Program-made: the position numbers and the translations under genes | Assembly: GCA_021204165.1 (NCBI GenBank) | Contig: JAJPZU010000112.1 | Coordinates: 1 to 11,574 of the forward strand | Source of the DNA: Prevotellaceae bacterium | GTDB taxonomy: Bacteria > Bacteroidota > Bacteroidia > Bacteroidales > Bacteroidaceae | Direction of reading: 5' to 3' | Length of the DNA stretch: 11,574 nucleotides | Shown: positions 227 to 11,574 of the stretch, piece by piece | Layout: every line of letters begins with the position of its first letter | Position numbering within the stretch: the first letter of the stretch is position 1 | The notes under the pieces: generated by a model | What the model was told of the DNA's origin: nothing | Database searches by the model: none | The model's input: the letters and a program-made list of their open reading frames with translations, nothing else

Positions 227-1681
227 CTATAAAGGCATGTTGCCATGCTTCTTCGGCGGATTGCTCTGATTCTTGTTACGAGTCATCTCCAGTGCCTGAA
301 TAAGACGTATGCGGGTGTCACACGGCTGTATGATTTCATCAATATAGCCAAGCTGTGCAGCCGGCATAGGATTGGCAAATTTACGTCGGTATTCCTCTAT
401 CGCCGCCGCGCGCTCTTCCGGCGAAGCCTTTCGGTAGAGAATGTTACATGCACCTTCCGCTCCCATCACGGCAATCTCCGCAGTCGGATAAGCTAAATTC
501 ACATCCGCACCGATACATTTGCTGTTCATCACAATGTATGCCCCGCCATAAGCCTTGCGCGTGATGAGTGTGAGCTTCGGTACTGTGGCCTCAGCAAAAG
601 CATACACAATCTTAGCCCCATGACGGATGATGCCGTTGTGCTCCTGATCTGTTCCCGGAAGGAAGCCCGGAACATCCTCCACCGCCACGAGCGGAATATT
701 AAAGCAGTCGCAGAAACGGATAAAGCGGGCAGCCTTGTCGCTTGCGTCAATATCGAGCGCACCGGCAAGGAAGTTTGGCTGATTTGCCACAAAACCCACT
801 GTGCGGCCGGCAAGACGTCCGAATCCTACTACAATGTTCTTGGCAAACTCGGTCATCACCTCGAAGAAATACTGCTGGTCGCATACCGGTTCTATGATAT
901 TGCGTATGTCATACGGCACATTAGGGTCTTCCGGAACCACATTGTCCAGTTCATGGCACACGCGGGTTATCTCATCTGTCACCGGATAGACAGGGGCATC
1001 TTCCATATTATTGGAAGGGATGAATCCAATCAGTTCGCGGATGGTCATCAGAGTCTCTTCCTCATCGCGGCAGACGAAATGGCTCACACCGCTCACACTG
1101 CTATGCGTCATGGCACCTCCGAGTGTCTCCTTGTCAACCGCTTCATTCGTCACGGCACGAACCACGTCCGGACCGGTGACAAACATCTGGCTCTGTCCCT
1201 TCACCATGAGAATGAAATCTGTCAGTGCAGGAGAATAGCACGACCCTCCGGCGCAAGGCCCGAGTATGGCAGAAATCTGCGGAATCACTCCGGATGCCAT
1301 CACGTTTTGCCGGAAGATGTGTGCAAAACCGGTCAGACTTTCCACTCCTTCCTGTATGCGTACACCTCCGGAATCGTTCAGACCGATAATCGGTGCTCCG
1401 TTTTTAAGGGCAAGTTCCTGCACTTTCACAATCTTCTGCGCGTTTGCCGCACTGAGAGAACCTCCCAATACCGCAAAATCAAAAGCATAGACGAAGACAA
1501 TGCGTCCGTCAATCTTGCCGTATCCGGAAATCACACCGTCGCCCTCCACACGCTTCTTGTCCATGCCGAAGTCGTTGCAACGATGCACCACATGCTTGTC
1601 CATTTCCACAAATGTTCCTTTGTCAAGAAGCAAATCTATGCGCTCACGTGCTGTGAGTCTCTGTATCTTATTGTCATTCAT
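227..1681 (-). CDS. Acyl-CoA carboxylase carboxyltransferase subunit, the propionyl-CoA carboxylase beta / methylmalonyl-CoA decarboxylase alpha family.
   Basis: 484-aa ORF whose N-terminus (LTARERIDLLLDKGTFVE...GLNDSGGVRIQEG) and overall layout are typical of the CoA-carboxyltransferase family. It overlaps the upstream carrier-protein gene by 8 bp, which implies translational coupling. Confidence 0.9.
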   Translation of the reverse strand: MNDNKIQRLTARERIDLLLDKGTFVEMDKHVVHRCNDFGMDKKRVEGDGVISGYGKIDGRIVFVYAFDFAVLGGSLSAANAQKIVKVQELALKNGAPIIGLNDSGGVRIQEGVESLTGFAHIFRQNVMASGVIPQISAILGPCAGGSCYSPALTDFILMVKGQSQMFVTGPDVVRAVTNEAVDKETLGGAMTHSSVSGVSHFVCRDEEETLMTIRELIGFIPSNNMEDAPVYPVTDEITRVCHELDNVVPEDPNVPYDIRNIIEPVCDQQYFFEVMTEFAKNIVVGFGRLAGRTVGFVANQPNFLAGALDIDASDKAARFIRFCDCFNIPLVAVEDVPGFLPGTDQEHNGIIRHGAKIVYAFAEATVPKLTLITRKAYGGAYIVMNSKCIGADVNLAYPTAEIAVMGAEGACNILYRKASPEERAAAIEEYRRKFANPMPAAQLGYIDEIIQPCDTRIRLIQALEMTRNKNQSNPPKKHGNMPL

Positions 1682-2192
1682 TGTTTTCGTTCAGTTTTAA
1701 TGTTATCAATGTCTGTCCGACCTTCACACTGTCGCCTTCTGCCACAAGCACAGAAAGCACCTCGCAATCAGCCGCGACCTTATAGTTCGACTGCATCTTC
1801 ATAGCCTCCATAGTCAGTACCGTGTCTCCGGCCTTCAGCTTGTCGCCCTGCTTGCAATACGCTTTTACTATCTTGCACGGCATCGGCGCCGTCACCTGAT
1901 CGCTCTGCACGGCATCCGTCTTTTTCCGCATACGCATGTATTTTGCCTGCGAGTCCAACATGTCAATCTGGTAAGTCGAATAGTTGACATTCACGCGGTA
2001 ATGCTTTCCTGCATCGCTCTTCACCAGCTCTGCCTTGTACGAGTTTCCATTGTGAATAATCGAACATGTTCCGTTTTGCAACATGGCCACATCCACATCA
2101 TAAACTTGTCCGTCTATATCAATCTTCACGTTGTTTCCGTCTTTGCTCAACAGCGTGACATCTACAATCTTGTTTCCAACCTGAATATCCAT
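1674..2192 (-). CDS. Biotin carboxyl carrier protein, i.e. a biotin/lipoyl-attachment domain protein.
   Basis: 172-aa ORF. The C-terminal biotinyl domain carries the canonical EAMKM motif (LTMEAMKMQ), with the biotinyl-Lys codon at ~1797-1799. The gene sits between the biotin carboxylase and carboxyltransferase genes. Confidence 0.9.
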   Translation of the reverse strand: MDIQVGNKIVDVTLLSKDGNNVKIDIDGQVYDVDVAMLQNGTCSIIHNGNSYKAELVKSDAGKHYRVNVNYSTYQIDMLDSQAKYMRMRKKTDAVQSDQVTAPMPCKIVKAYCKQGDKLKAGDTVLTMEAMKMQSNYKVAADCEVLSVLVAEGDSVKVGQTLITLKLNENNE

Positions 2193-2308: not shown

Positions 2309-3835
2309 TTATACTCTCAACACACCCTTCTGCAATCCGAATGTTCTCCAGCGATTGATGGCGGACTGTCCCTGTTTGCATTCAGCCGCCCCACCGGTAT
2401 TTTCCTCCAGATTCATAAGGTAGTCTATGTAGGCGGCAATCACCGCCATCTCTTCGCTCTCGTTCTTGAATCCCGGACGCGGACGCAGACGCTCCGCATT
2501 GCGCTCTATAAAATAGGTGTTGTAGTTTCCTTCACGGAAATCAGGCACATCAATGATGCGGCGCAAGTAGCGTATGTTCGTAGTCAGACCGACAATCTTA
2601 TATTCATACAGCACTCTCCTCATGCGCTCAATGGCATACTGTCTCTCCGTAGCCCAAACGATAAGCTTTCCAATCATCGGATCGTAATGTACGGGAATCT
2701 CATAGCCCTCATATACATAGCTGTCGATTCGGATACCAATGCCGTGAGGCTCTGTGAGCTGAACAATCGTTCCCGGCGAAGGCATGAAGTTATGCTCCGT
2801 ATCCTCCGCACAGATGCGGCACTCTATGGCATGTCCTCTTTGGCGGATATCCTCCTGACGGTAGCCCAGCGGTTGTCCGTCAGCAATAAGAATCTGCTGT
2901 TTCACAAGATCGACGCCGACAACTTCTTCCGTGATAGGATGCTCCACCTGAAGCCGGGTGTTCATTTCAAGGAAATAGAAATGATGGTGCTTATCCACAA
3001 GAAACTCAATGGTGCCGGCACCGATGTAGCCCACCGCTTTTGCCGCAGCCACCGCCTTCTCGCCCATTTCGCGGCGAAGAGTGTCATCAATAAACGGCGA
3101 CGGACTTTCTTCTACTATTTTCTGGTGACGACGCTGCACAGAACATTCGCGGTCGTAAAGATGGATGACATTGCCATGCTTGTCGCCAAGTATCTGAAAC
3201 TCTATGTGGTGAGGCTCCTCGACAAACTTTTCGATATAGACTGTATCATCGCCAAACGAAGCCATCGCCTCGTTCTTTGCCGCATTGTACATCTCTATCA
3301 CATCTTCTTCGCGTTCAATAAGTCTCATGCCTTTTCCGCCGCCACCCATAGAAGCCTTCAGCATCACGGGGAAGCCAATCTTTCGGCACACCTCCAAGGC
3401 TTCCTCGCCACTGCTCAATTGCTCCTGAGTTCCGGGCACAACGGGCACTCCCGCCTTTATCATCTGTATGCGGGCGGAAATCTTGTCGCCCATCAATTCC
3501 ATGGTTTCCGGCTTTGGACCGATGAAGATGATGCCTTCAGCTTCACAACGACGCGCAAACTCGGAATTTTCGGAAAGGAAACCGTATCCCGGGTGAATGG
3601 CATCCACTTTGTGCTTCTTTGCCGCCTCGATAATGTGGTCGATATTCAGGTAGCTGTCTGCCGACGACGCACCGCCGATACACTCTGCTTCGTTTGCAAA
3701 AACGACATGGCGCGACAGACGGTCGGCAGTGCTATAGACAGCCACAGAACGTATGCCCATTTCATAACAAGCACGCATCACCCGAATCGCAATCTCACCG
3801 CGATTGGCAACCAATACTTTTCTTATCATAAACAT
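2309..3835 (-). CDS. accC: Biotin carboxylase subunit of an acetyl/propionyl-CoA carboxylase.
   Basis: 508-aa ORF with the N-terminus KVLVANRGEIAIRVMRA typical of biotin carboxylases. It also has an ATP-grasp glycine-rich loop (MLKASMGGGGKGMR) and a conserved C-terminal biotin carboxylase domain. Confidence 0.93.
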   Translation of the reverse strand: MFMIRKVLVANRGEIAIRVMRACYEMGIRSVAVYSTADRLSRHVVFANEAECIGGASSADSYLNIDHIIEAAKKHKVDAIHPGYGFLSENSEFARRCEAEGIIFIGPKPETMELMGDKISARIQMIKAGVPVVPGTQEQLSSGEEALEVCRKIGFPVMLKASMGGGGKGMRLIEREEDVIEMYNAAKNEAMASFGDDTVYIEKFVEEPHHIEFQILGDKHGNVIHLYDRECSVQRRHQKIVEESPSPFIDDTLRREMGEKAVAAAKAVGYIGAGTIEFLVDKHHHFYFLEMNTRLQVEHPITEEVVGVDLVKQQILIADGQPLGYRQEDIRQRGHAIECRICAEDTEHNFMPSPGTIVQLTEPHGIGIRIDSYVYEGYEIPVHYDPMIGKLIVWATERQYAIERMRRVLYEYKIVGLTTNIRYLRRIIDVPDFREGNYNTYFIERNAERLRPRPGFKNESEEMAVIAAYIDYLMNLEENTGGAAECKQGQSAINRWRTFGLQKGVLRV

Positions 3836-4424
3836 CTATATTTGGTTATACACTTTCTTCCATCTCAAAACAAAATATAATACGATATCAGAAAGCACAC
3901 TCCGAGAACCGCATGACAAAGCGGACAACTCACGAAAGAATACATATCCCAAGAATACATGAATACACAAAAAACACCGATATTCCATCCCGGAATCTCA
4001 GCAAAACAGTATTCTCAGTATTTTTCCGGCAGCTCTTATTCCCGAGAGCGGCATCTGAACATCGGCATCGGCAGGTCTTCTGACTTCTCCATTGGCAGCA
4101 CGGCCTTCCCAACCACAATTATTTACAGCCTCACGGCAATAACAAAGGTCAGTGGCACAACATGATGATGTGTTGCCATAAAAAACAGGAGTTACAGCTA
4201 CGGGTATAGTTACAGACTCACACTGTATTCCCTCTTAGTCTGTCCGTCTTTCCTGAGTGCTTCTTCCTGAAGTCCGCCATTCCCGAAATCAGATTAGGCA
4301 AATTCCAGTCTCAACAAGCCTCAAATGAAGAGGACAAGAACCAAATGCGCGGCAAAAGTACACATAAAATCCGAATCCATGCACTTTTTACCATATTTTT
4401 ACTCCAAACATTCTATGAAACTCT

Positions 4425-4578: not shown

Positions 4579-5955
4579 TCAGTCTTCTACTTCTTCCGCA
4601 TCCACAGCAGGCTCTTCTTTTTTCTTCGCCAGATACTCCGGCAAATTAAGCCCCGCCATATCGAAAAGTTCGTTAAGCGGCGGAACAGACTTCATCAGTC
4701 CGGACACGAAACCGGCTGTAGAGCCTTTTCCGTCTGCACCACCGGCACCATTGTCCCAAACAGTCACATGGTCAATGTTGATACCCTTGACAGCCTCAAC
4801 CTGAGTCTTGACAAGCTCAGGAAGCTTTTCGAGCAGCAACAGCATGTATGCCTTGTTGGCATCTCCTCCGGCAGCCTGAACCATCTTGTCATAACCGGCA
4901 GCCTGCTTCGTCAGCACTTCATACAAACCTTTTGCTTCTGCCTCCATCTTGGCATAAATGGCATCTGCTTCACCCTTTGCATTGACACGCACGCGCTCTG
5001 CTTCCGCCTCCGCTTCGATGATAAGTCGTCTCTTCTCAATCTCCTGCGGAACGAGTACGTTGGCTGTTTCCGTAGAGCGTTCACGTTCTGCACGCGCTTC
5101 CTCAGCCTCGCGTTCTGCCGCGTATGCTTCCTGCAATGCCTTTGCCTGCTGTACTTTTTCTGAGGCTGTGGCTTTACGCTGTGCCTCCGCTTCCTTCTCA
5201 CGGCGATAAGCCTCGGATGCAGCAATGGCAACCTTCGCTTCGTTCTCACCCTTTACGGCTTCCGCATTGGCTTCGGCTGTACGTATGCGGGTTTCTCTCA
5301 CCGCTTCCGCCTTACCGATTTCACCGACTTTATCTTGCTCTGCCACTCTCACTTTTGCCTCATTTATCGCTTTGGCAGCAGCTTCACGTCCGAGAGCCTC
5401 TATATATCCGCTCTCATCTTTTATATCGGTCACGTTCACATTTATCAGACGAAGACCAATCTTTTTCAGTTCCACTTCTACATTGGCAGAAATGCTCTCA
5501 AGAAACTTGTCACGGTCGTTGTTCAGTTCCTCAATACTCATCGTGGCAATTACCAGACGCAACTGTCCGAAAAGAATATCACGCGCCAGTTCCTGTATCT
5601 GTGCAGCACTAAGTCCGAGCAAACGTTCCGCAGCTGCATTCATGCAATCGTGGTCTGTAGATATACCCACAGTGAAGCGGCTTGGCACATCCACACGGAT
5701 GTTCTGTTTGCTGAGCGCATTTGTCAGATTCGCATCAATACTGATTGGTGTAAGGCTAAGATAAGCATAGTCTTCGATTATAGGCCATACGAAAGCACCG
5801 CCGCCATGCACGCAACGTGCCGACGTTTTGCTGCTTTTACTCCCATAAATCACCAAAATTTTGTCCGAAGGACACCGTCTGTAACGATTCACAATGGAAA
5901 CGAACAGCGCAATAGCCACTACAGCGGCAATTACAATAAGATACATAGATTCCAT
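4579..5955 (-). CDS. SPFH / band-7 flotillin-like protein of the YqiK/FloT type.
   Basis: 458-aa ORF with an N-terminal transmembrane helix and an SPFH domain (…ILVIYGSKSS…RVDVPSRFTVGIS…). A long Ala/Glu/Arg/Lys-rich coiled-coil region follows, then a C-terminal acidic tail. This architecture is typical of bacterial flotillins. Confidence 0.88.
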   Translation of the reverse strand: MESMYLIVIAAVVAIALFVSIVNRYRRCPSDKILVIYGSKSSKTSARCVHGGGAFVWPIIEDYAYLSLTPISIDANLTNALSKQNIRVDVPSRFTVGISTDHDCMNAAAERLLGLSAAQIQELARDILFGQLRLVIATMSIEELNNDRDKFLESISANVEVELKKIGLRLINVNVTDIKDESGYIEALGREAAAKAINEAKVRVAEQDKVGEIGKAEAVRETRIRTAEANAEAVKGENEAKVAIAASEAYRREKEAEAQRKATASEKVQQAKALQEAYAAEREAEEARAERERSTETANVLVPQEIEKRRLIIEAEAEAERVRVNAKGEADAIYAKMEAEAKGLYEVLTKQAAGYDKMVQAAGGDANKAYMLLLLEKLPELVKTQVEAVKGINIDHVTVWDNGAGGADGKGSTAGFVSGLMKSVPPLNELFDMAGLNLPEYLAKKKEEPAVDAEEVED

Positions 5956-6044
5956 AATTAATTATTTTAATATCCAACTTTTCAAGATTACAAGACCGGT
6001 TGCCGCATGAAGTGCCCCCTGTCTGAAGAAAGTTTCAAATTCAT

Positions 6045-6137
6045 CTCTCTTGGTCAAAAATTCTCATCCCTTTGGGTCAAAATTTTCATTCCTTTAGTCA
6101 AAAAAATCTCATCCCTTTGGGTCAAAGATTCTCTACC
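6045..6137. repeat. Four tandem ~23-bp direct repeats of tttgggtcaaaaattctcatccc variants. Each contains the dyad TTTG-GGT-CAAA. They sit between the NfeD-like stop and the flotillin start.
   Basis: tctcttggtcaaaaattctcatccc | tttgggtcaaaattttcattcc | tttagtcaaaaaaatctcatccc | tttgggtcaaagattctctacc. The last copy overlaps the stop codon of the upstream gene at 6122-6124. Confidence 0.75.
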
Positions 6138-6700
6138 ACCAGCATTTCTCCGCCGACAACATCAGTAATCCGCACCTTGCGCCCTGTGGTTATCGCCTCA
6201 CCCTCTGTAACCGCATCCAGTTCATGCACGGAACCGTTCACACTTATCTGCACTTTTCCTCTGCCGCTCTTCTTCTCCGGAATGCGCAGATAGACATCTG
6301 CCACACGTCCCTTGCAATATTCAATGCGGAAGGCGCCGTTTGCCTCCAGCTTCTTGGTCTGCTTGTAGATAAAGAAGAACATCCACACAAAAAACAAGCC
6401 TACGGCTGCTGCCACGAGTGCCAGCAACACAGCATTACCCATCAGCGAATGCAGACAGACACCTGCCCAGCCGAAGCCCACAAAGAAATTGACAAGGCTC
6501 CTTATAGAGAACAACGACAGTCCTCCTCCCAAATCCATTGTGTCTCCGGCATCAAAATCGACATCTATGTCGCTTGAATCCATTCCGAACAACGTAAGCA
6601 GAAGCTGTATTACAAACACAGCTGACCCGACAAGTGCACAAACCCAGAACACTTGCTGCATAGTTTCAAGTCCACTGAACCAAATTGAAAAACTCTCCAT
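6122..6700 (-). CDS. NfeD/YqiJ-like membrane protein, the usual operon partner of a flotillin.
   Basis: 192-aa ORF with 3-4 N-terminal hydrophobic helices and a C-terminal soluble ~60-aa beta-rich OB-like tail (GRVADVYLRIPEKKSGRGKVQISVNGSVHELDAVTEGEAITTGRKVRITDV). It lies directly upstream of the flotillin gene on the same strand. Confidence 0.7.
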   Translation of the reverse strand: MESFSIWFSGLETMQQVFWVCALVGSAVFVIQLLLTLFGMDSSDIDVDFDAGDTMDLGGGLSLFSIRSLVNFFVGFGWAGVCLHSLMGNAVLLALVAAAVGLFFVWMFFFIYKQTKKLEANGAFRIEYCKGRVADVYLRIPEKKSGRGKVQISVNGSVHELDAVTEGEAITTGRKVRITDVVGGEMLVVENL

Positions 6701-6899
6701 ATTCTAATTAGTTTTACGGTTATATAAATCATATTCTGAAATGATATGTCCACCATCTATTTTACAAAGAGGGAACATCCTTAAAAAAAATAACATTACC
6801 AGACTGCATTTTTCATTAAACACTCTCCTTCTCACTGCATTTTCATAATTCATAAAAGACTCCGATTAATTATTTTAATGATAAATGCCAATCTTATAA

Positions 6900-7580
6900 T
6901 TACCATACATATTGCGATGGATATTTTACTTGCATGAAAGTGAAGCCATGCCCCATTACGCTATGGTGAGAAGTCGTCTGTGCTGTCATATTTGATACAA
7001 TACTGCCAAACACCTGCATATTTGCTCTTGCGTCACCGCGTGAAGCAAGAATGGGTGCATCAGGGACATCGTAATCGCGCCATGCAAATAAGCAGACCTT
7101 TTGGGGATATGTCAAGAGATTTACAGCTGTTGTAGATTCTTGAATCAAAACTTCTATCGATTTAAGCATTTGCTGTCTGGCTTTTGCCCGTTTCCCTTCC
7201 GGGTATTTTCCCGTATTAGGCTCAACATATTTTTCCTCATAACAACACAAGTCACAGAATACAACTTTTTCATGTACCATTCCTGTCTCTGTCATTAATA
7301 AATCACATCGGTCTTTAATATTGGCAGTAGTGCCTGCAAATTGTTCGATATACTTTTCAAAACGAACCACAGCAATTTCCTTGCCATTATTATTCACCTT
7401 CAGAACTTCTTTATTGCATTCATTACGGTAAGCCCTTTCAGGCAATTGCTGACATCGTATGCAACTCTTGGAGTCGGTTTCTGAGAAAGGTTCGCGTATT
7501 CTGTAGAGAGGCACTTCTACTTCTTGTGGATTTATGCCATAATGGAGCGGGAATGCCTTTTTAAGAAAAGATTCTATCAT
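6900..7580 (-). CDS. Hypothetical Cys-rich protein that is translationally coupled to the upstream ABC-type ATPase. It is the candidate effector or partner of a two-gene defence-like cassette.
   Basis: 226-aa ORF. Its ATG overlaps the ATPase stop in an ATGA arrangement (7577-7580). It contains CxxC (CIRC) and HxxxxxCDLCC motifs. Composition is AT-rich like the ATPase gene. I recognise no family with confidence; a DUF4276/RloB-type partner is possible but unverified. Confidence 0.6.
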   Translation of the reverse strand: MIESFLKKAFPLHYGINPQEVEVPLYRIREPFSETDSKSCIRCQQLPERAYRNECNKEVLKVNNNGKEIAVVRFEKYIEQFAGTTANIKDRCDLLMTETGMVHEKVVFCDLCCYEEKYVEPNTGKYPEGKRAKARQQMLKSIEVLIQESTTAVNLLTYPQKVCLFAWRDYDVPDAPILASRGDARANMQVFGSIVSNMTAQTTSHHSVMGHGFTFMQVKYPSQYVW

Positions 7581-8737
7581 ACGTCAAGATTTACAAATTC
7601 ATTATAAATGTGACTCATCAACTCTGAGAGGTCGTAAGTATCTACAATCCACCGTCCGCGTTCATTTTGGACAAGCAAATCTTGTATCTCTCCTTCATAT
7701 ATTCGATAAACAGCCGTGTTAGTCCTGCTCAATTGGGCACGTACTGCATTTGTTTGGTTTAGTAAAACATTCAAGTAGTTAAGAATATACGGACTATGGG
7801 TCGCAAGCATCATATTAATTTCTCGATTTTCATCCGCATGTGTTGCCGACAGCACAATTTCTTCTATGAGTTTGCACTGTGCATCAGGGAACAGACTTAA
7901 CTCAGGTTCTTCAATATGGATATATACTTGTTTCTTCAAATCGCTGGGTTCTGCGACAGCCCGAAACTTGTTCAATCTTTCCATATCATACAGATAGTTC
8001 AGGACAGAGCGCTTGAATGCGTCCTTAAATGAAAAGCCATTTGCGCTGGCATAGTTCTTTACAATCAAAGCGACCGATGCTGACGTTTGAATGCCGGATG
8101 AAGCTTCTCGTAAGTCGATTGGCTCATGACGGCTGTCATTTGGAATGACGGTGTAGCGTGTAGGCTTACCTTTGGGGTGGGTTATCTGAAGCTTCATGCC
8201 TATATAGTCCAACGGTATCTCTTTGTCGTTTGCCGATGCTCTGACAAAATCATTGTTTGTTTCATGAAAATAAAATCCCAAGGTTGCACCTGTGTTTTGG
8301 GATGCCTTTTGCGCCCATGTCGGAATGATGTTTCGGTTTTCAGAGATATAGGACACTTTGTTGAACACCAAATGGTCAGAAGATATAATGGGAAGTCTGC
8401 CTAATTTCTTGTTTTCCATCAAGATGGTGTATTCCGTTTCATCATCCATGACTACACTATACCTAATTACACTTGACGAGTCAAGCATTTTATACATTCC
8501 CGTTTCTTTCATCATCGAATCGAAGCGCATCCTGAAAGGAGAGCTTGTTATTTTTGAATGCTTCAAATAAGAACGGATGTTTGCCATTTTGTACAGATAG
8601 CGCATCATGCTTATCAGCTTCATCAGTGTGCTTTTACCACTTGCGGATTCACCAATCAACACAGTGAATGGCAGAAGGCCAAGGTTCTCAATGTGCTTTA
8701 GCGGACCAATATTTTTAATTGTTATAAATTCCTTCAT
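7577..8737 (-). CDS. ABC-type ATPase of the AAA_21/AAA_15 (SMC-like) family with no fused transporter domain. The longest ORF extends to 8815, but the start at MKEFITIKNIG (8737) is more plausible.
   Basis: Walker A GESASGKST at ~8627-8653. An ABC-signature-like SSGIQ motif. A Walker B / D-loop VYIHIEEPELSLFP. An H-loop LATHSPYIL. There is no transmembrane region. GC is low compared with neighbouring genes. Confidence 0.85.
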   Translation of the reverse strand: MKEFITIKNIGPLKHIENLGLLPFTVLIGESASGKSTLMKLISMMRYLYKMANIRSYLKHSKITSSPFRMRFDSMMKETGMYKMLDSSSVIRYSVVMDDETEYTILMENKKLGRLPIISSDHLVFNKVSYISENRNIIPTWAQKASQNTGATLGFYFHETNNDFVRASANDKEIPLDYIGMKLQITHPKGKPTRYTVIPNDSRHEPIDLREASSGIQTSASVALIVKNYASANGFSFKDAFKRSVLNYLYDMERLNKFRAVAEPSDLKKQVYIHIEEPELSLFPDAQCKLIEEIVLSATHADENREINMMLATHSPYILNYLNVLLNQTNAVRAQLSRTNTAVYRIYEGEIQDLLVQNERGRWIVDTYDLSELMSHIYNEFVNLDV

Positions 8738-8956
8738 AATAAAGTTTTGTTTTTCAAACAATCTGATAAAGTATGATTTACCCAATAAAGATACTAATTT
8801 GTACTTCAACAGCAAAAAAAATCCTGTATTGTGACGCTAAAAACGTGAATTTATTACAGAAATGGCACTTTGTCATGTCAAATCAGAAGGTGAAGTGTCA
8901 AAACAGGAGATACAATCCAAACTTATTGTTGCATGAACATCTGGGGCCAGAGCCGC

Positions 8957-9478
8957 CTAATCCTCCAGCCAGTCCTCCGACAAACTGAAGTCCTTGTCCG
9001 CAAACAAGTCCGCCAGCCCGGAAATCTGCTTCAGCCTCAACAGCTCATCCTTGTCCATGCCGATATTGCGCATAATCCACGCATCCGACATGCCCGCAGA
9101 CGTAAGCTCCGACACGATGTGGCTCATCAGCTCTATCGTGTGCGTACCCCTCGCCCTGTTATGACGTATGGTCGAAGCCATTCTGCACGAAATATCCTTG
9201 TCTATCACCGACACGGGAAGCATCCCCTTCTCCCTGTCATAAATTCGTTTCGATGTCTTCATCACCAGATAGCGGTGGAATCCATCTACAATCTCATACT
9301 TGTCCTCGTCCTTCAAGTAATAGCACACGCAAGGCATGGTGTACCCGTCCTCCCATATCGACAGTTCCAACAGCTTCATCTCCGGAGGAGCCACCATGTT
9401 GGGGTTATAATTGTTCGCCACCACTTTCTCGATAGGCACTGCTATCACATTATATACCGGACTCTTAAAATTTTCCAT
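8957..9478 (-). CDS. ibrB: ParB-like nuclease domain protein (IbrB-like).
   Basis: 173-aa ORF with a ParB/Srx-type motif IVDGFHRY (codons ~9272-9286). It overlaps the upstream PAPS-reductase-like gene by 14 bp, which implies translational coupling. Confidence 0.7.
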   Translation of the reverse strand: MENFKSPVYNVIAVPIEKVVANNYNPNMVAPPEMKLLELSIWEDGYTMPCVCYYLKDEDKYEIVDGFHRYLVMKTSKRIYDREKGMLPVSVIDKDISCRMASTIRHNRARGTHTIELMSHIVSELTSAGMSDAWIMRNIGMDKDELLRLKQISGLADLFADKDFSLSEDWLED

Positions 9479-10763
9479 ATTCCAATGCTTTATATTTTCT
9501 CATCACACTTTCTCGTCTGCTCTTCTCATTCTTGGTCAGGGTAAAGCCCATGTACTTACACACATGGTCGTTTCTCAGTATGCAGATGCAGACACGCTTG
9601 AATGTCGGAATCTCCCGAAACTCCGGAATGTCTATGTCGTCAACGTACTCCATCATGACCGGTCTTTTGTTAGTGCGGTATGCCGTGGTCGTCCCAACCG
9701 TAAACTTCACCCCTGCCGCACGCAATTTTTCAATGGTCTCATCGCTCAGACATCCGCCTTTCGTCCTCCAGAATCTCATGCTCACACCTATCTTGTCCAG
9801 ATAATTGCGGCACACCTTCTCCGGCAACGTGTCCAGCAGAAAGTACATGTACTTTTTCCAAGAAAATCCGTGAGGACATTTTATCGACTTCCATCCCATA
9901 GCCGTCGTATTCCCGTAGATGCCGGAAAAATTGACACCATTGACACGGCTGACCATCCGCCCCCACATGTCGGGGTCTATCGCCCGATAGACACTCAGCG
10001 TAGGTATGGCATGAGAAATGAACGGACTTGCCACCCGCTGCCGCCCAATCGGAATGCCCGCACGCGAATAAAGGTCATAAAGCGGATTATAAGTCCATCC
10101 GAATTTTCCGTTTGCCGTCCAGATGTCAGATGTTTTCCAGTCATAAAGCGGATAAGCGTTATACACATGTGCAGCAAGCTTATGTGTCCATTTGTAATGC
10201 GAAAGCCGCCGGTAGTTCTTGGCATTGTGTATGGCCGTCCACCGGTTAAAACTCTCCTGCGTCCTTATGCCTACAAGACAACATATACGTTCACATTTCT
10301 TCCGGTTGCGCAGCCAAGGGGCGAAAAGATACTGGAAGTCATAGTCCCACAAGGCATCAGTGAAGAAATTGAAATCGGCTGCCGTATAAGCCCCCTCAGG
10401 CATTTCCCTCACCCATATATCCTTCTCCGATTCTCCCCAAGGTCTCCAATACGACTGGTGCATGGATGTACAGGTCATGACTTTGAAGGGCACGCAACAA
10501 TGGTACACCTCCAGAATGTCGCGATTCTCCGACAGGGTACGGCGCACATACTCCGTGGTCTGCCGGTACTGCACCTCGTAGTCCATGTGGAACACACCCA
10601 GCTTACGTCCCGGAGCATACCTCCGTATATAGTCTATGCACAGATTCAACAACACTCCGCTGTCCTTGCCACCCGAAAACGAGACATACACATAATCGAA
10701 ATAATCGAATATGATCTTCAGCCTCCTTTGCACTGCTTCATAAACATCAAGTTGCCTAATCAT
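9465..10763 (-). CDS. ibrA: Phosphoadenosine-phosphosulfate reductase family PP-loop protein. It is DndC/IbrA-like, with a PAPS_reduct domain and a C-terminal extension.
   Basis: 432-aa ORF with the PP-loop SFSGGKDS near the N-terminus (~10659-10682). Its size and C-terminal region fit the IbrA/DUF3440-type proteins that pair with ParB-like IbrB. Confidence 0.8.
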   Translation of the reverse strand: MIRQLDVYEAVQRRLKIIFDYFDYVYVSFSGGKDSGVLLNLCIDYIRRYAPGRKLGVFHMDYEVQYRQTTEYVRRTLSENRDILEVYHCCVPFKVMTCTSMHQSYWRPWGESEKDIWVREMPEGAYTAADFNFFTDALWDYDFQYLFAPWLRNRKKCERICCLVGIRTQESFNRWTAIHNAKNYRRLSHYKWTHKLAAHVYNAYPLYDWKTSDIWTANGKFGWTYNPLYDLYSRAGIPIGRQRVASPFISHAIPTLSVYRAIDPDMWGRMVSRVNGVNFSGIYGNTTAMGWKSIKCPHGFSWKKYMYFLLDTLPEKVCRNYLDKIGVSMRFWRTKGGCLSDETIEKLRAAGVKFTVGTTTAYRTNKRPVMMEYVDDIDIPEFREIPTFKRVCICILRNDHVCKYMGFTLTKNEKSRRESVMRKYKALEYGKF

Positions 10764-11164
10764 TCCTTACGTCCTCCGGCATATACCATCTTGTCATAAT
10801 TCTTCCATTCCCTATGTGTCCTGAAGCCGTTGCGTGCAAAGTCAGCCACATGACGCTTGTGTACGACTGCGGTCAGCACAGTCCTGCTCACCGACTCCGC
10901 CACCACCCTGTCGAGCAGAGCATCAATGAGCAAAGAATCGTCGCCCTTGATATAATAATTGTCAATACAGGCTTCACGCTCTTTCTCCTTTACCGGAATG
11001 AATCCGATTACCTCCTTTTTCTCTATGGCCACATACCATTTGTGATGACGGGAGGTCTTGAAGGGATAATTGTTGTTGAGCCTCAACACTGCCGCATTCA
11101 TCACCAGCGGTGCCACCAGCTCATAAAGGCGGGAAGATGTGCCTTCTAAAATCTCAATATTCAT
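10760..11164 (-). CDS. Small protein, possibly with a GNAT-like acetyltransferase fold. It is the first gene of the coupled three-gene operon.
   Basis: 134-aa ORF whose stop overlaps the downstream PAPS-reductase-like gene start by 4 bp. Its beta-alpha pattern is loosely GNAT-like (WYVAIEKKEVIGFI…YYIKGDDSLLIDALLDRV…FARNGF). The fold assignment is tentative. Confidence 0.5.
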   Translation of the reverse strand: MNIEILEGTSSRLYELVAPLVMNAAVLRLNNNYPFKTSRHHKWYVAIEKKEVIGFIPVKEKEREACIDNYYIKGDDSLLIDALLDRVVAESVSRTVLTAVVHKRHVADFARNGFRTHREWKNYDKMVYAGGRKE

Positions 11165-11312
11165 AAAAACAGTCTTTTTGATTCTTGCCTATCCCGACTT
11201 CCGAATCATGAGAGTCTCGGTCTTATAAAGAAGATACATCAGTTGCCACATCCGTAATCTATAAACAGCAGACATCATGAACCATCAAAGTCAAGTAATG
11301 CAATAAACTATG

Positions 11313-11320
11313 CAAAAGTA
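11313..11320 (-). promoter_or_regulatory. Possible Bacteroidetes-type -7 promoter element (TAnnTTTG, here TACTTTTG on the minus strand) upstream of the three-gene operon.
   Basis: Plus-strand caaaagta reverse-complements to TACTTTTG, a match to the Bacteroides sigma-ABfr -7 consensus. It lies ~150 bp upstream of the ATG at 11164. No clear -33 TTTG was found, so this is weak. Confidence 0.25.
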
Positions 11321-11434
11321 CGACAAATACCTTTTTTATTCTACCCGATGTCATATTTTTTACAAGAAGAATACTTAGATACTGTTTTTTAGAAGCCGTT
11401 TGTTTAAATGAATGTATTCAACAATTTTAAGCTT

Positions 11435-11574
11435 GTCTATTTAACGGACTCCTCATGTGTATTTAGTGGAATGTTTTTATATTTGGTGGGGTGTTCTCGG
11501 CAGACTCCTCATGTGTGAATTGTATGTGTTAGCAGACGTTTTCGACAGACTCCTCCGTCGCTACCGCGCCACCT
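11435..11574. repeat. Right terminal repeat block, the inverted partner of 11-120. The terminal 37 nt (11538-11574) are the reverse complement of 11-46 apart from one extra G. On the complementary strand, GAGGAGTCTG / GAGGAGTCCG copies begin 20, 65 and 121 nt from the terminus, so the spacing is 45 and 56 nt versus 35 and 36 nt on the left.
   Basis: Reverse complement of 11435-11574 aligned by eye to 11-140. The gactcctc motifs are visible at ~11447, ~11501 and ~11546 on the plus strand. Confidence 0.8.

What the first reader, a model, noticed from the sequence alone, without database searches (positions are those of the whole stretch)
8957..11164. Three-gene coupled operon: GNAT-like small protein, then a DndC/IbrA-like PAPS-reductase PP-loop protein, then a ParB-like nuclease-domain protein (IbrB-like)
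All three genes overlap: 4 bp at 10760-10763 and 14 bp at 9465-9478. The middle protein has the PP-loop SFSGGKDS of PAPS-reductase/DndC-type ATP pyrophosphatases. The last has the ParB/Srx DGFHR-type motif. PAPS-reductase plus ParB pairs (IbrA/IbrB) are known as regulators in E. coli. They are related to the DndC and DndB logic of DNA phosphorothioation and 7-deazaguanine modification systems, but their biochemistry is essentially uncharacterised. A tightly coupled upstream GNAT-like gene is not a part of the pair that I recognise as described. It may indicate a three-component nucleic-acid modification or conflict system. The operon sits right next to the ATPase cassette, forming a small defence-island-like cluster.
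Basis: partly seen in the sequence, partly recalled or inferred. Interest (0 to 1): 0.75.

Follow-up and report, generated by a model that had tools for sequence, protein, structure and literature searches.

The report
GNAT–IbrA–IbrB three-gene operon
A real three-gene operon, always found together in gut Bacteroidales, adds a divergent acetyltransferase-fold protein to the widespread but biochemically unstudied IbrA/IbrB enzyme pair; comparison with phage versions suggests it chemically modifies DNA, which has not been tested.

Summary

The three-component claim holds. Anchoring on the small gene gives the triad in 79 of 80 Bacteroidales genome loci. Anchoring on IbrA gives 77 of 77 metagenome loci. 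Order, strand and tight spacing are the same throughout, and no flanking gene is conserved.

The GNAT is a clade-specific addition. E. coli ybdNM and Streptococcus phages lack it. Phage IbrAB modules instead carry an SNF2 helicase, an EctC-like cupin, or distant GNATs in other positions, one of which is a canonical Pfam GNAT.

The defence-island idea is not supported. The neighbouring ATPase cassette is a strain-specific low-GC insertion of about 2.2 kb, and triad flanks elsewhere are housekeeping genes.

The most likely function, by inference only, is a DNA-directed modification module: an NTP-binding ParB-like partner, an adenylating PP-loop enzyme and an acyl-transfer accessory. I class it as a new variant of a known, uncharacterised kind.

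The parts
10760..11164 (-). Gene 1: 134-aa divergent GNAT-fold protein, the first gene of the operon.
9465..10763 (-). Gene 2: 432-aa IbrA/YbdN-type PP-loop enzyme (PAPS_reduct domain + DUF3440).
   Evidence: Pfam PAPS_reduct 2.7e-12 and DUF3440 1.1e-87. It is 31% identical over its full length to E. coli YbdN (E 1e-65). A relative from viral contig L091, 62% identical, hits PHROG 2302 at 2.7e-101. The family has at least 5731 clusters. No solved structure exists.
8957..9478 (-). Gene 3: 173-aa IbrB/YbdM-type ParB/Srx-like protein.
   Evidence: It is 50% identical to E. coli YbdM (E 3e-53) and hits PHROG 2159 at 1.3e-77. ParB_N scores 1.4e-3 and Noc 1e-4 over residues 11-75. It is the most conserved of the three, at 73-97% identity across Bacteroidales loci.
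10659..10682 (-). PP-loop SFSGGKDS (IbrA residues 28-35), the ATP pyrophosphatase signature.
   Evidence: Read. FSGGKDS is invariant in 155 of 155 IbrA sequences, down to 38% identity.
9558..9560 (-). Codon of IbrA Cys402, in the C-terminal DUF3440 tail motif R-x-C-x5-ND-x2-C-x4-F.
   Evidence: C402 is conserved in 152/155 sequences and C392 in 121/155. R390 and D399 are invariant, and N398 is conserved in 154/155. The same tail occurs as a stand-alone mini-protein of about 86 aa in phage loci.
9272..9286 (-). DGFHR (IbrB residues 65-69), the ParB/Srx-type DGxHR motif.
   Evidence: D65, G66, H68 and R69 are invariant across the Bacteroidales, E. coli and Streptococcus-phage proteins.
9146..9166 (-). 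RHNRARG (IbrB residues 105-111), a second invariant IbrB motif.
   Evidence: Invariant in alignments A4 and A5 and in the 69-sequence alignment.
11054..11077 (-). NNNYPFKT (small-protein residues 30-37), the family signature in the alpha2-beta2 loop.
   Evidence: N30, N31, Y33, P34, F35 and T37 are invariant in 62 sequences.
10940..10963 (-). DNYYIKGD (small-protein residues 68-75). This beta4-alpha3 loop is where canonical GNATs carry the CoA-binding Q/R-x-x-G-x-G/A motif.
   Evidence: N69, Y70 and D75 are invariant and G74 is at least 90% conserved. The canonical motif is not present; placement is by inspection against the topology. Close relatives L095 and L096 lack even the Gly, whereas distant relative L169 has YRQKGV.
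10760..10763 (-). ATGA stop/start overlap between gene 1 and gene 2.
   Evidence: The small gene overlaps ibrA, or ends within 5 nt of it, in 62/63 loci.
9465..9478 (-). 14-bp overlap between gene 2 and gene 3.
   Evidence: ibrA overlaps ibrB, or ends within 9 nt of it, in 68/69 loci; -14 is the most common value.
11313..11320 (-). TACTTTTG, a candidate Bacteroides-type -7 promoter box about 150 nt upstream of gene 1 (weak).
   Evidence: Pattern match. In 45/63 related loci a TAnnTTTG box lies within 260 nt upstream, mostly at -16 to -47. The generic sigma-70 scan was not above chance.

Best explanation
SHOWN. Window 8957-11164 (minus strand) is one tightly packed, self-contained three-gene operon. 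It encodes a divergent GNAT-fold protein, an IbrA-type PP-loop ATP-pyrophosphatase-family enzyme (PAPS_reduct + DUF3440) and an IbrB-type ParB/Srx-like protein. It is the Bacteroidales three-component variant of the widespread two-gene IbrAB/YbdNM module of bacteria and phages. The small gene is obligatory within this IbrA clade and absent from most other clades.

INFERRED. The module acts on nucleic acid, most likely DNA, as a covalent modification system.
- IbrB is the NTP-binding, DNA-engaging partner or activator, as DndB, DpdB and the phage 5mYOX-ParB are for their enzymes.
- IbrA uses ATP to adenylate its target through the invariant PP-loop. A near-invariant C-terminal Cys402 may act as nucleophile or sulfur carrier.
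- The GNAT-fold protein adds or tailors an acyl group, or acts as a substrate adaptor. Its canonical CoA loop is degenerate.

The biological role would be marking of self DNA: anti-restriction in phages, and an epigenetic or self-identity mark in the bacterial chromosome. The chemistry of the mark is unknown.
For: Operon and three-component status
- The triad has the same order and strand in 79/80 genome loci across Bacteroidaceae, Prevotellaceae, Muribaculaceae, Tannerellaceae, Odoribacteraceae, Rikenellaceae and Barnesiellaceae. It is present in 77/77 IbrA-anchored metagenome loci.
- Spacing is an overlap or at most 9 nt almost everywhere.
- No flanking gene is shared by more than 6 loci.
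- GNAT-linked IbrAs form one clade in an NJ tree of 155 sequences.

Enzyme features
- FSGGKDS is invariant in 155/155 and Cys402 in 152/155 sequences.
- DGxHR and RHNRARG are invariant.

Link between the GNAT and IbrAB beyond Bacteroidales
- Relatives of the small protein occur in 10/80 phage IbrA loci, in three different arrangements: upstream of ibrA, fused to a DUF3440-tail domain, or between ibrA and ibrB.
- One of them, in L169, is a canonical Pfam GNAT scoring above the gathering cut-offs.

DNA direction
- In Streptococcus phages and 31/80 IMG/VR loci, ibrA is directly preceded by an SNF2-family helicase; in phage CHPC1062 the two genes overlap.
- IbrB also matches the ParB-like N-terminal region of phage DNA methyltransferases (phrog_498, 1e-8).
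- A single IbrA-IbrB fusion protein exists (P0382).
- Phage ParB homologues are obligate activators of thymine dioxygenases on dsDNA (PMC13229309). DpdB and DndB are ParB-like partners of DNA-modifying enzymes (PMC12839542 and PMC10853773).
- The module is carried by virulent Streptococcus phages and sits beside tail-fibre and lysis genes in a Bacteroidales prophage contig. This fits a function that serves a DNA element.
Against: - There is no biochemical or genetic evidence for any member of the IbrA/IbrB family. The only experimental label, 'co-activators of prophage eib expression' in E. coli, is regulatory.
- IbrA fails the DndC model (18 bits against a cut-off of 290). No sulfur-donor or DndD/E-like genes accompany it, so phosphorothioation in particular is unsupported.
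- The GNAT lacks the canonical acetyl-CoA pyrophosphate loop and any Pfam GNAT hit, so it may not be catalytic.
- Other accessory partners (an EctC-like cupin) and ParB/Srx relatives (sulfiredoxin; the SerK serine kinase, weak hit) act on small molecules or proteins.
- Bacteroidales flanks are housekeeping genes with no restriction partner.
- No DNA-binding domain of IbrB could be demonstrated. The AF2 model was poor, with pLDDT 61.6.
Confidence: 0.45

Rival explanations
1. The module is a transcriptional regulator. IbrB, as a ParB-like DNA binder, controls target promoters together with IbrA as cofactor, as the E. coli name 'co-activator of prophage gene expression' implies. The GNAT modulates the regulator, for example by acetylating it.
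For: Phage CHPC1062's homologues carry the IbrA/IbrB 'co-activator of prophage gene expression' annotation. The activation of eib genes by ibrAB in E. coli ECOR-9 is from my own knowledge (Sandt, Hopper and Hill 2002), not from a paper read here. YbdM has been predicted to be a transcription factor (PMC9068703). In phage CHPC1062 a small HTH protein follows ibrB.
Against: The catalytic signatures are under very strong constraint (FSGGKDS in 155/155 sequences and the GxRxxES block), which a mere cofactor would not need. The module occurs in virulent phages coupled to an SNF2 helicase or to small enzymes such as a GNAT or a cupin. No recognisable HTH was detected in IbrB by any profile. Activation of gene expression in E. 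coli could be an indirect result of DNA modification.
Confidence: 0.15
2. The module is an anti-phage defence or abortive-infection system. A ParB-like NTPase/nuclease effector works with a PP-loop sensor or modifier, and together with the adjacent ATPase cassette it forms a defence island.
For: In this window it is adjacent to an AAA_21/AAA_15 ATPase that matches PADLOC candidate PDC-M29A (2.1e-26), AriA, NsnB and PtuA. IbrA has weak partial hits to BrxP (4.7e-7) and DndC (3.4e-6). ParB/Srx domains can be nicking DNases or NTPases (PMC5512222). Distribution is patchy: 179 matching stretches in a collection of 185,579 species genomes.
Against: The ATPase cassette is absent from all 160 related genome and metagenome loci and is a low-GC indel. 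Of 92 immediate flanking genes, none is enriched for defence, integrase or transposase families. There is no PADLOC hit for the small protein or IbrB. Close homologues (54-70% identity) are carried by virulent phages.
Confidence: 0.12
3. The module is a small-molecule or protein-directed pathway rather than a nucleic-acid one. Examples would be activation and tailoring of a sulfur- or amine-containing metabolite or nucleotide, with IbrB as a Srx/SerK-like kinase, IbrA as an adenylating or sulfonucleotide enzyme, and the GNAT or EctC-like proteins as tailoring enzymes.
For: IbrA belongs to the PAPS-reductase family and has a near-invariant C-terminal Cys. IbrB gives a weak SerK hit. The accessory proteins come from families typical of small-molecule chemistry: GNAT, and Ectoine_synth at 8.9e-39. 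Chromosomal flanks are housekeeping genes. In the E. coli citR deletion, ybdN and ybdM are de-repressed together with the cys regulon (PMC9068703).
Against: Tight, recurrent coupling to an SNF2-family helicase in phages. IbrB matches the ParB-like N-terminal region of phage DNA methyltransferases. The module lies among phage replication and recombination genes. No transporter or biosynthetic neighbour is conserved.
Confidence: 0.2
4. The 134-aa ORF is spurious or an unrelated neighbour, and only the IbrAB pair is functional.
For: There is no Pfam, PHROG or PADLOC hit.
Against: It has 249 homologue clusters with 18 invariant residues and a confident GNAT-fold model. Synteny is strict, at 79/80 and 77/77 loci. 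Relatives lie next to IbrA in phages in other arrangements, including a fusion.
Confidence: 0.01

Closest known systems
E. coli YbdN/YbdM (K-12) and IbrA/IbrB (ECOR-9 island; 'co-activators of prophage eib expression')
   Same: They share the two-protein core: PAPS_reduct + DUF3440 followed by an overlapping ParB-like gene on the same strand. Identity is 31% (YbdN) and 50% (YbdM), full length. The PP-loop, DGFHR, RHNRARG and Cys402 are all conserved.
   Different: E. coli has no GNAT-fold gene; the upstream gene there is the LysR repressor CitR/YbdO. The E. coli pair has only a regulatory phenotype on record and no known biochemistry.
Phage IbrA/IbrB modules (Streptococcus phages CHPC1062 and PY3; PHROG 2302 / 2159; IMG/VR contigs)
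   Same: They share the IbrA-IbrB core with high identity (54-55% and 70%), the same order and overlapping genes. A few phage loci also carry relatives of the small GNAT.
   Different: The usual partner directly upstream is an SNF2-family helicase rather than a GNAT. Other loci carry an EctC-like cupin between ibrA and ibrB, a stand-alone DUF3440-tail mini-protein, or an unknown family of about 143 aa.
DndB/DndC of DNA phosphorothioation, and BrxP of type 4 BREX
   Same: The logic is the same: a ParB/Srx-superfamily DGxHR protein paired with a PAPS-reductase-family PP-loop ATPase acting on DNA (PMC10853773 and PMC12839542). There are weak local hits to the DndC and BrxP models.
   Different: IbrA scores 18 bits against the DndC cut-off of 290. 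No DndA/D/E, cysteine desulfurase or BREX genes are nearby. IbrA has DUF3440, which DndC and BrxP lack. The motif is DGFHR, not DGQHR.
ParB-like partners of other DNA-modifying enzymes (DpdB with DpdA; phage 5mYOX-ParB; ParB-methyltransferase fusions)
   Same: In each case a ParB/Srx-type protein is encoded next to, or fused with, an enzyme that modifies DNA after replication and is required for or stimulates its action on dsDNA (PMC13229309; PMC12839542). IbrB matches the ParB-like N-terminal region of phage DNA methyltransferases (phrog_498).
   Different: The enzyme partner here is a PP-loop adenylating enzyme, not a transglycosylase, dioxygenase or methyltransferase. No modification product is known.
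GCN5-related N-acetyltransferases (for example S. aureus 4lua, P. aeruginosa PA0115, RimI, ElaA)
   Different: There is no Pfam GNAT hit. The Q/R-x-x-G-x-G/A CoA loop is replaced by the invariant N-Y-Y-x-x-G-D. hhalign against ElaA finds nothing. The acyl donor and the acceptor are both unknown.

Membership tests
IbrA/YbdN family (PAPS_reduct + DUF3440) | Both Pfam domains, PF01507 and PF11922, above their gathering cut-offs in one polypeptide | tested here: met
   PAPS_reduct scores 47.5 bits (cut-off 22.5) and DUF3440 scores 292.9 bits (cut-off 25). It aligns over its full length with YbdN at E 1e-65.
IbrA/YbdN family (PAPS_reduct + DUF3440) | Intact PP-loop SGGKDS | tested here: met
   SFSGGKDS is at residues 28-35 and is invariant in 155/155 family members.
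IbrA/YbdN family (PAPS_reduct + DUF3440) | ParB-like partner gene immediately downstream on the same strand | tested here: met
   The two genes overlap by 14 bp in the window. The arrangement holds in 68/69 Bacteroidales loci, and ibrB lies on the same strand in 74/80 viral loci.
IbrB/YbdM family (ParB/Srx-like) | ParB N-terminal domain (Pfam PF02195) above its cut-off | tested here: inconclusive
   The score is 19.1 bits against a cut-off of 26.3. Some close homologues do carry a precomputed PF02195 hit.
IbrB/YbdM family (ParB/Srx-like) | Full-length similarity to YbdM/IbrB, with the DGxHR and RHNRARG motifs | tested here: met
   It is 50% identical over 161 aa to YbdM (E 3e-53). Both motifs are invariant. 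PHROG 2159 scores 1.3e-77.
DndC (DNA phosphorothioation sulfurtransferase) | Score above the TIGR03183 equivalog cut-off | tested here: not met
   The score is 18.1 bits against a cut-off of 290.4, and only residues 130-216 match.
DndC (DNA phosphorothioation sulfurtransferase) | Neighbouring dndA/dndD/dndE-type genes | tested here: not met
   No gene other than the triad is conserved. The flank Pfam scan shows none of these families.
DndB (DGQHR-domain ParB-like regulator) | Match to a DndB or DGQHR model | tested here: not met
   No DndB family appears in the NCBIfam or PADLOC results for the 173-aa protein. The motif is DGFHR.
Type 4 BREX (BrxP) | Full-length BrxP match plus BrxC/PglZ-type neighbours | tested here: not met
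   The BrxP hit covers only residues 20-110 at 26 bits. No BREX genes are present in the window.
Assimilatory PAPS reductase (CysH) | C-terminal ECGLH catalytic motif and a CysH-sized protein of about 240 aa | tested here: not met
   The 432-aa sequence contains no ECGLH (by inspection). PDB PAPS reductases match only weakly, at E 0.06-0.13. The ECGLH criterion is from established knowledge of CysH.
GNAT superfamily | GNAT fold (beta1-alpha1-alpha2-beta2-4-alpha3-beta5-alpha4-beta6-7) | tested here: met
GNAT superfamily | Sequence match to a Pfam or NCBIfam GNAT model | tested here: not met
   There is no Pfam hit, and rimI scores 17 bits against a cut-off of 86. A transitive link exists through the L169 protein. 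It matches the small-protein HMM at 1.8e-6 and Acetyltransf_1/7/10 above their cut-offs.
GNAT superfamily | Acetyl-CoA pyrophosphate-binding motif Q/R-x-x-G-x-G/A in the beta4-alpha3 loop | tested here: not met
   The loop reads D-N-Y-Y-I-K-G-D-D. Only G74 is retained, and the acidic D75 is invariant. Close relatives L095 and L096 lack even the Gly. Placement is by inspection, not by structural superposition.
Catalogued anti-phage defence systems (PADLOC-DB v2.0.0) | Model hits for the system's component proteins | tested here: not met
   There are 0 families for the small protein and for IbrB, and only weak partial BrxP/DndC hits for IbrA.

The most novel reading that the evidence does not exclude
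IbrA-IbrB may be the core of a large, uncharacterised family of DNA hypermodification pathways (at least 5,700 protein clusters). The PP-loop enzyme would adenylate a position in DNA, on a base or the backbone. Lineage-specific accessory enzymes would then append or tailor the adduct: the divergent GNAT in Bacteroidales, and canonical GNATs, an EctC-like cupin, a DUF3440-tail mini-protein and an SNF2 helicase in phages. On this reading the gut Bacteroidales triad writes a new acyl-type mark on chromosomal DNA, and the phage versions are a new class of anti-restriction DNA modification.
Probability: 0.2. Interest if true: 0.88.

Novelty: new variant of a known kind. Interest (0 to 1): 0.6.

Why it matters
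IbrA/IbrB (YbdN/YbdM) is a very large family with at least 5,731 IbrA clusters. It is present in E. coli K-12, gut Bacteroidales, dairy Streptococcus phages and many environmental phages. No mechanism is known and no structure has been solved.

This analysis shows that one clade has recruited an obligatory GNAT-fold third subunit. It also shows that other clades have recruited an SNF2 helicase, an EctC-like cupin or canonical GNATs. That turns an annotation dead end into concrete, testable biochemistry: an adenylating enzyme, a ParB-like partner and an acyl or amine tailoring step, probably on DNA.

If the DNA-modification reading holds, it would add a new epigenetic or anti-restriction chemistry in abundant human-gut bacteria and industrially relevant phages. 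If it does not, the strict three-gene synteny still defines a compact system that could readily be cloned and expressed for function discovery.

Tried and rejected
- Megablast of window 6800-11574 against the phage and plasmid collections found nothing.
- Sequence searches of the PDB with IbrA found nothing. With IbrB they found only Noc at 0.0017. A seven-sequence IbrA profile gave only marginal PP-loop hits, at E of 0.012 or worse.
- The AF2 model of IbrB, built from a shallow alignment (at least 82% identity), had mean pLDDT 61.6 and a disordered N-terminal half. I did not use it for fold search or for any claim about an HTH.
- hhalign of the small-protein profile against E. coli ElaA, the top Foldseek hit, gave no meaningful alignment. 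The CoA-motif test therefore rests on inspection.
- The afdb50 fold library was unavailable.
- The generic sigma-70 and terminator scan was not above shuffled expectation.
- The repeat search found no parS-like or inverted-repeat element tied to the operon.
- A k-mer search of 63 upstream regions found only A/T-rich promoter-like words.
- Three long IbrA hits (P0348, P0374) and one small-protein hit (P0191) were checked as possible domain fusions. They are internal duplications or frameshift artefacts.
- Two GenBank 'Bacteriophage sp.' records carrying the triad were considered as evidence of phage carriage. MT835983 is bacterial chromosome, with MatE, aminotransferase, AraC, MFS and chromate-transporter genes.
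- I considered and rejected the idea that the ATPase cassette belongs to the system.
- Literature searches for IbrA/IbrB, DUF3440, ybdN/ybdM and PAPS reductase + ParB found no mechanistic study and no mention of a third gene.


Full report
OBSERVATION

The window is an entire 11,574-bp contig of a Prevotellaceae MAG; the small protein is recorded as LUD00_05640 and its longest contig is 11,574 bp. The mechanical ORF list gives three minus-strand ORFs at exactly the coordinates in the finding: 11164..10760 (134 aa), 10763..9465 (432 aa) and 9478..8957 (173 aa). They overlap by 4 bp (ATGA, 10760-10763) and 14 bp (9465-9478). The PP-loop SFSGGKDS (residues 28-35 of the middle protein, window 10659-10682) and DGFHR (residues 65-69 of the last protein, 9272-9286) can be read directly from the sequence.

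IDENTITY OF THE PROTEINS

The middle protein hits Pfam PAPS_reduct (2.7e-12) and DUF3440 (1.1e-87), both above their curated cut-offs. It aligns end to end with E. coli K-12 YbdN (31% identity, E 1e-65). It is not a DndC: TIGR03183 scores 18 bits against a cut-off of 290. It is not a BrxP either, with only a partial 26-bit hit.

The last protein scores below the ParB_N cut-off (19 bits against 26). It is nevertheless 50% identical over 161 residues to E. coli YbdM (E 3e-53) and hits PHROG 2159 'ParB-like partition protein' at 1.3e-77. NCBI itself names a close homologue 'IbrB-like domain-containing protein'. Neither protein has a solved relative in the PDB.

In the beta4-alpha3 loop, canonical GNATs carry the Q/R-x-x-G-x-G/A acetyl-CoA motif. 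This family instead has an invariant N-Y-Y-x-x-G-D, and its closest phage-contig relatives lack even the glycine. The fold is therefore GNAT, but use of acetyl-CoA is uncertain. A full scan of 1.84 billion representative proteins finds only 311 relatives, nearly all stand-alone proteins of about 130-140 aa. This is a narrow, divergent family.

IS THE SMALL GENE PART OF THE SYSTEM?

- Anchored on the small protein. The species-representative genome collection holds 179 matching stretches, and 80 loci were fetched. They span Bacteroidaceae, Prevotellaceae, Muribaculaceae, Tannerellaceae, Odoribacteraceae, Rikenellaceae and Barnesiellaceae. In 79 of the 80, the small gene is followed directly by ibrA on the same strand. 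ibrB follows except where the contig ends within ibrA (three loci). The one exception to ibrA is a contig that ends at the small gene.
- Anchored on IbrA. In 80 metagenome loci (IbrA 70-94% identical), the small gene is directly upstream in 77 of 77 loci with room for it. ibrB is downstream in 77 of 77.

Spacing is conserved. The small gene overlaps ibrA, or ends within 5 nt of it, in 62/63 loci. ibrA overlaps ibrB, or ends within 9 nt of it, in 68/69 loci. Identity to the window ranges over 45-84% for the GNAT, 59-94% for IbrA and 73-97% for IbrB. Nothing else is conserved: the next most common neighbouring gene family is shared by only 6 loci. A Bacteroides-type -7 box (TAnnTTTG) lies within 260 nt upstream of the small gene in 45/63 loci, mostly at -16 to -47. 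This fits the small gene being the promoter-proximal gene of an autonomous three-gene operon. The window itself has only a distal box, at 11313-11320.

THE 'DEFENCE ISLAND' CLAIM

The adjacent ATPase (8815..7577) carries AAA_21/AAA_15 domains and matches PADLOC PDC-M29A at 2e-26, along with AriA, NsnB and PtuA. It and its 226-aa partner (7580..6900) look like a defence-type cassette. They are unrelated to the triad for four reasons.

- The cassette was found outside the window only in a Logan contig of the same sequence (L001, 100% identical proteins).
- None of the 160 other related genome and metagenome loci has it.
- A blastn comparison with the closest relative, L003, is collinear at 89-93% identity on both sides, with window 6799-8958 replaced by 172 bp.
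- The cassette has 36-43% GC against 46-50% for the triad, and it has its own TAAGTTTG box.

A Pfam scan of 92 immediate flanking genes of the triad in other genomes finds aminotransferases, FAD oxidoreductases, CutC, TauE, efflux components, RNase Y and PhoH. No integrases, transposases or restriction genes are enriched.

WIDER FAMILY CONTEXT

IbrA-type proteins form at least 5,731 clusters, against 249 for the small protein. The GNAT therefore accompanies only a small subset. E. coli ybdN-ybdM has a LysR repressor (CitR) upstream and no GNAT.

Virulent Streptococcus phages CHPC1062 and PY3 carry IbrA (54-55% identical) and IbrB (70% identical), but no GNAT. There, ibrA is preceded by an SNF2-family helicase whose gene overlaps ibrA in CHPC1062.

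Among 80 IMG/VR contigs with IbrA relatives (38-65% identity):
- ibrB is on the same strand in 74;
- the SNF2-family helicase is directly upstream of ibrA, or one short ORF away, in 31;
- an unknown family of about 143 aa is nearby in 35;
- an 86-aa stand-alone copy of the DUF3440 C-terminal tail occurs in 10;
- a cupin of about 131 aa matching Ectoine_synth at 8.9e-39 sits in or beside the module in 12, between ibrA and ibrB where both genes are present.

Relatives of the small GNAT are present in 10 of these 80 contigs, in three arrangements. They lie upstream of ibrA (L095, L096, L133), fused to the DUF3440-tail mini-domain (L108), or between ibrA and ibrB in SNF2-type loci (L114, L120, L121, L123, L131, L169). 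It also scores above the gathering cut-offs of Pfam Acetyltransf_1, _7 and _10. It therefore ties the Bacteroidales family to bona fide GNATs by sequence.

In an NJ tree of 155 IbrA sequences, all genome-derived GNAT-linked IbrAs fall in one clade. In one set of IMG/VR contigs the triad lies 1-6 kb downstream of tail-fibre and endolysin genes, the prophage 'moron' position. A single metagenomic protein (P0382) is an IbrA-IbrB fusion.

MECHANISM: SHOWN VERSUS INFERRED

Shown. The catalytic-type signatures are under extreme constraint.
- FSGGKDS, D61, E63, G165-x-R167-x-x-E170-S171, D208, D213 and W215 are invariant in 155/155 IbrA sequences down to 38% identity.
- Cys402, in the C-terminal DUF3440 tail, is conserved in 152/155.
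- DGxHR and RHNRARG in IbrB are invariant.

Established knowledge. The SGGxDS PP-loop marks ATP alpha-beta pyrophosphatases that adenylate their substrates. ParB/Srx domains bind and hydrolyse NTPs and can nick DNA (PMC5512222).

Precedent. ParB-like proteins are dedicated partners of DNA-modifying enzymes:
- DndB in the Dnd modification system that contains DndC, and DpdB with DpdA (PMC10853773 and PMC12839542);
- phage ParB homologues that are obligate activators of thymine dioxygenases on dsDNA (PMC13229309);
- ParB-methyltransferase fusions (IbrB matches phrog_498).

Inference. Taken with the recurrent tight coupling to an SNF2 helicase and carriage by virulent phages, the best-supported model is a DNA-directed covalent modification module. 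IbrB engages DNA and activates IbrA. IbrA adenylates the target. The GNAT-fold protein transfers or tailors an acyl group, or acts as an adaptor. I put this at about 0.45.

The rivals are:
- small-molecule or sulfur chemistry, about 0.2, supported by the EctC-like and GNAT accessory types, a weak SerK hit, housekeeping flanks, and co-induction of the cys regulon when ybdNM is de-repressed in E. coli;
- transcriptional regulation, about 0.15;
- anti-phage defence, about 0.12.

Phosphorothioation in particular is not supported, because both DndC membership and the Dnd gene-context tests failed.

NOVELTY AND VERDICT

The IbrA-IbrB pair is a known but mechanistically uncharacterised kind. The obligatory GNAT-fold third gene in Bacteroidales was not found in any paper searched, and neither was the set of alternative partners in phages. 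I rate it a new variant of a known kind, with interest 0.6. A specialist would not be shocked by another ParB plus PP-loop module. However, the strict triad and the partner repertoire make the long-standing question of what IbrAB/YbdNM does directly testable.

Noticed in passing
window 6900-8815 (minus strand); indel boundaries about 6799-8958: This is a two-gene cassette. The first gene is a 412-aa AAA_21/AAA_15 ATPase that matches PADLOC candidate PDC-M29A (2.1e-26) and also AriA, NsnB and PtuA. It overlaps by 4 bp a 226-aa protein with no family hit. The cassette has low GC (36-43%) and its own TAAGTTTG box at 8925, and it starts immediately after the ibrB stop codon. All 160 other related genome and metagenome loci lack it, and relative L003 has 172 bp in its place. 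It is probably a recently inserted candidate defence cassette.
   Followed up: partly
window 4053-4296 (minus strand): A cobalamin riboswitch (Rfam RF00174, 71.6 bits, E 2e-16) lies upstream of a biotin-dependent carboxylase operon: biotin carboxylase at 3835..2309, biotinyl carrier at 2192..1674 and carboxyltransferase at 1681..227. This gene set is not the usual kind of target for B12 control.
   Followed up: no
L141, L148, L153, L155, L158, L163-L166, L170, L171 (IMG/VR contigs), gene next to ibrA: A protein of about 131 aa matching Pfam Ectoine_synth (EctC cupin) at 8.9e-39 lies immediately downstream of ibrA (one gene further on in L153) in 12 phage contigs, and between ibrA and ibrB where both genes were called. 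This is the same slot that a distant GNAT occupies in six other contigs.
   Followed up: partly
L108:4344-4997 (+); c8 family, for example L167:4735-4995 (+): The last ~50 residues of DUF3440 (motif P-S-Y-x-x-I-C-x-x-I-L-K-N-D...L-G-F) occur as a stand-alone 86-aa protein upstream of ibrA in 10 phage contigs. In L108 this mini-domain is fused to a relative of the small GNAT.
   Followed up: partly
35 of 80 IMG/VR loci, for example L160:7194-7625 (+): An unknown protein family of about 143 aa (conserved W-I-G-H-A-A-C...P-E-D) has no Pfam or PHROG hit. It is the most frequent extra neighbour of phage ibrAB and lies either upstream of ibrA or just after ibrB.
   Followed up: no
protein P0382 (572 aa, one metagenome contig): This is an apparent in-frame IbrA-IbrB fusion, with IbrA residues 1 to about 411 joined to IbrB from about residue 12. 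It may be a natural fusion or an assembly deletion.
   Followed up: no
L100 and L103 (IMG/VR): These contigs carry IbrA relatives (59% identity) with no detectable ibrB or GNAT, even though L103 has about 5 kb of downstream sequence. IbrA can therefore occur alone.
   Followed up: no
window 11447-11555: Three copies of GAGGAGTC(T/C)G-containing repeats, spaced 45-56 nt apart, lie in the non-coding stretch at the contig end. This is upstream of the point (11361) where homology to relative L003 stops.
   Followed up: no
L086 (GenBank MT835983, 'Bacteriophage sp.'): This virome-derived record carrying the triad is bacterial chromosomal DNA. Its genes include MatE, an aminotransferase, AraC, MFS and chromate transporters, an epimerase and a hybrid histidine kinase. 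The triad hit in it is not evidence of phage carriage.
   Followed up: partly
window 4579-6700 (minus strand): An NfeD-like membrane protein (192 aa) and a flotillin/SPFH protein (458 aa) form a pair downstream of the cassette. The pair is conserved next to the triad only in the closest relatives (L003, L174, L175).
   Followed up: no
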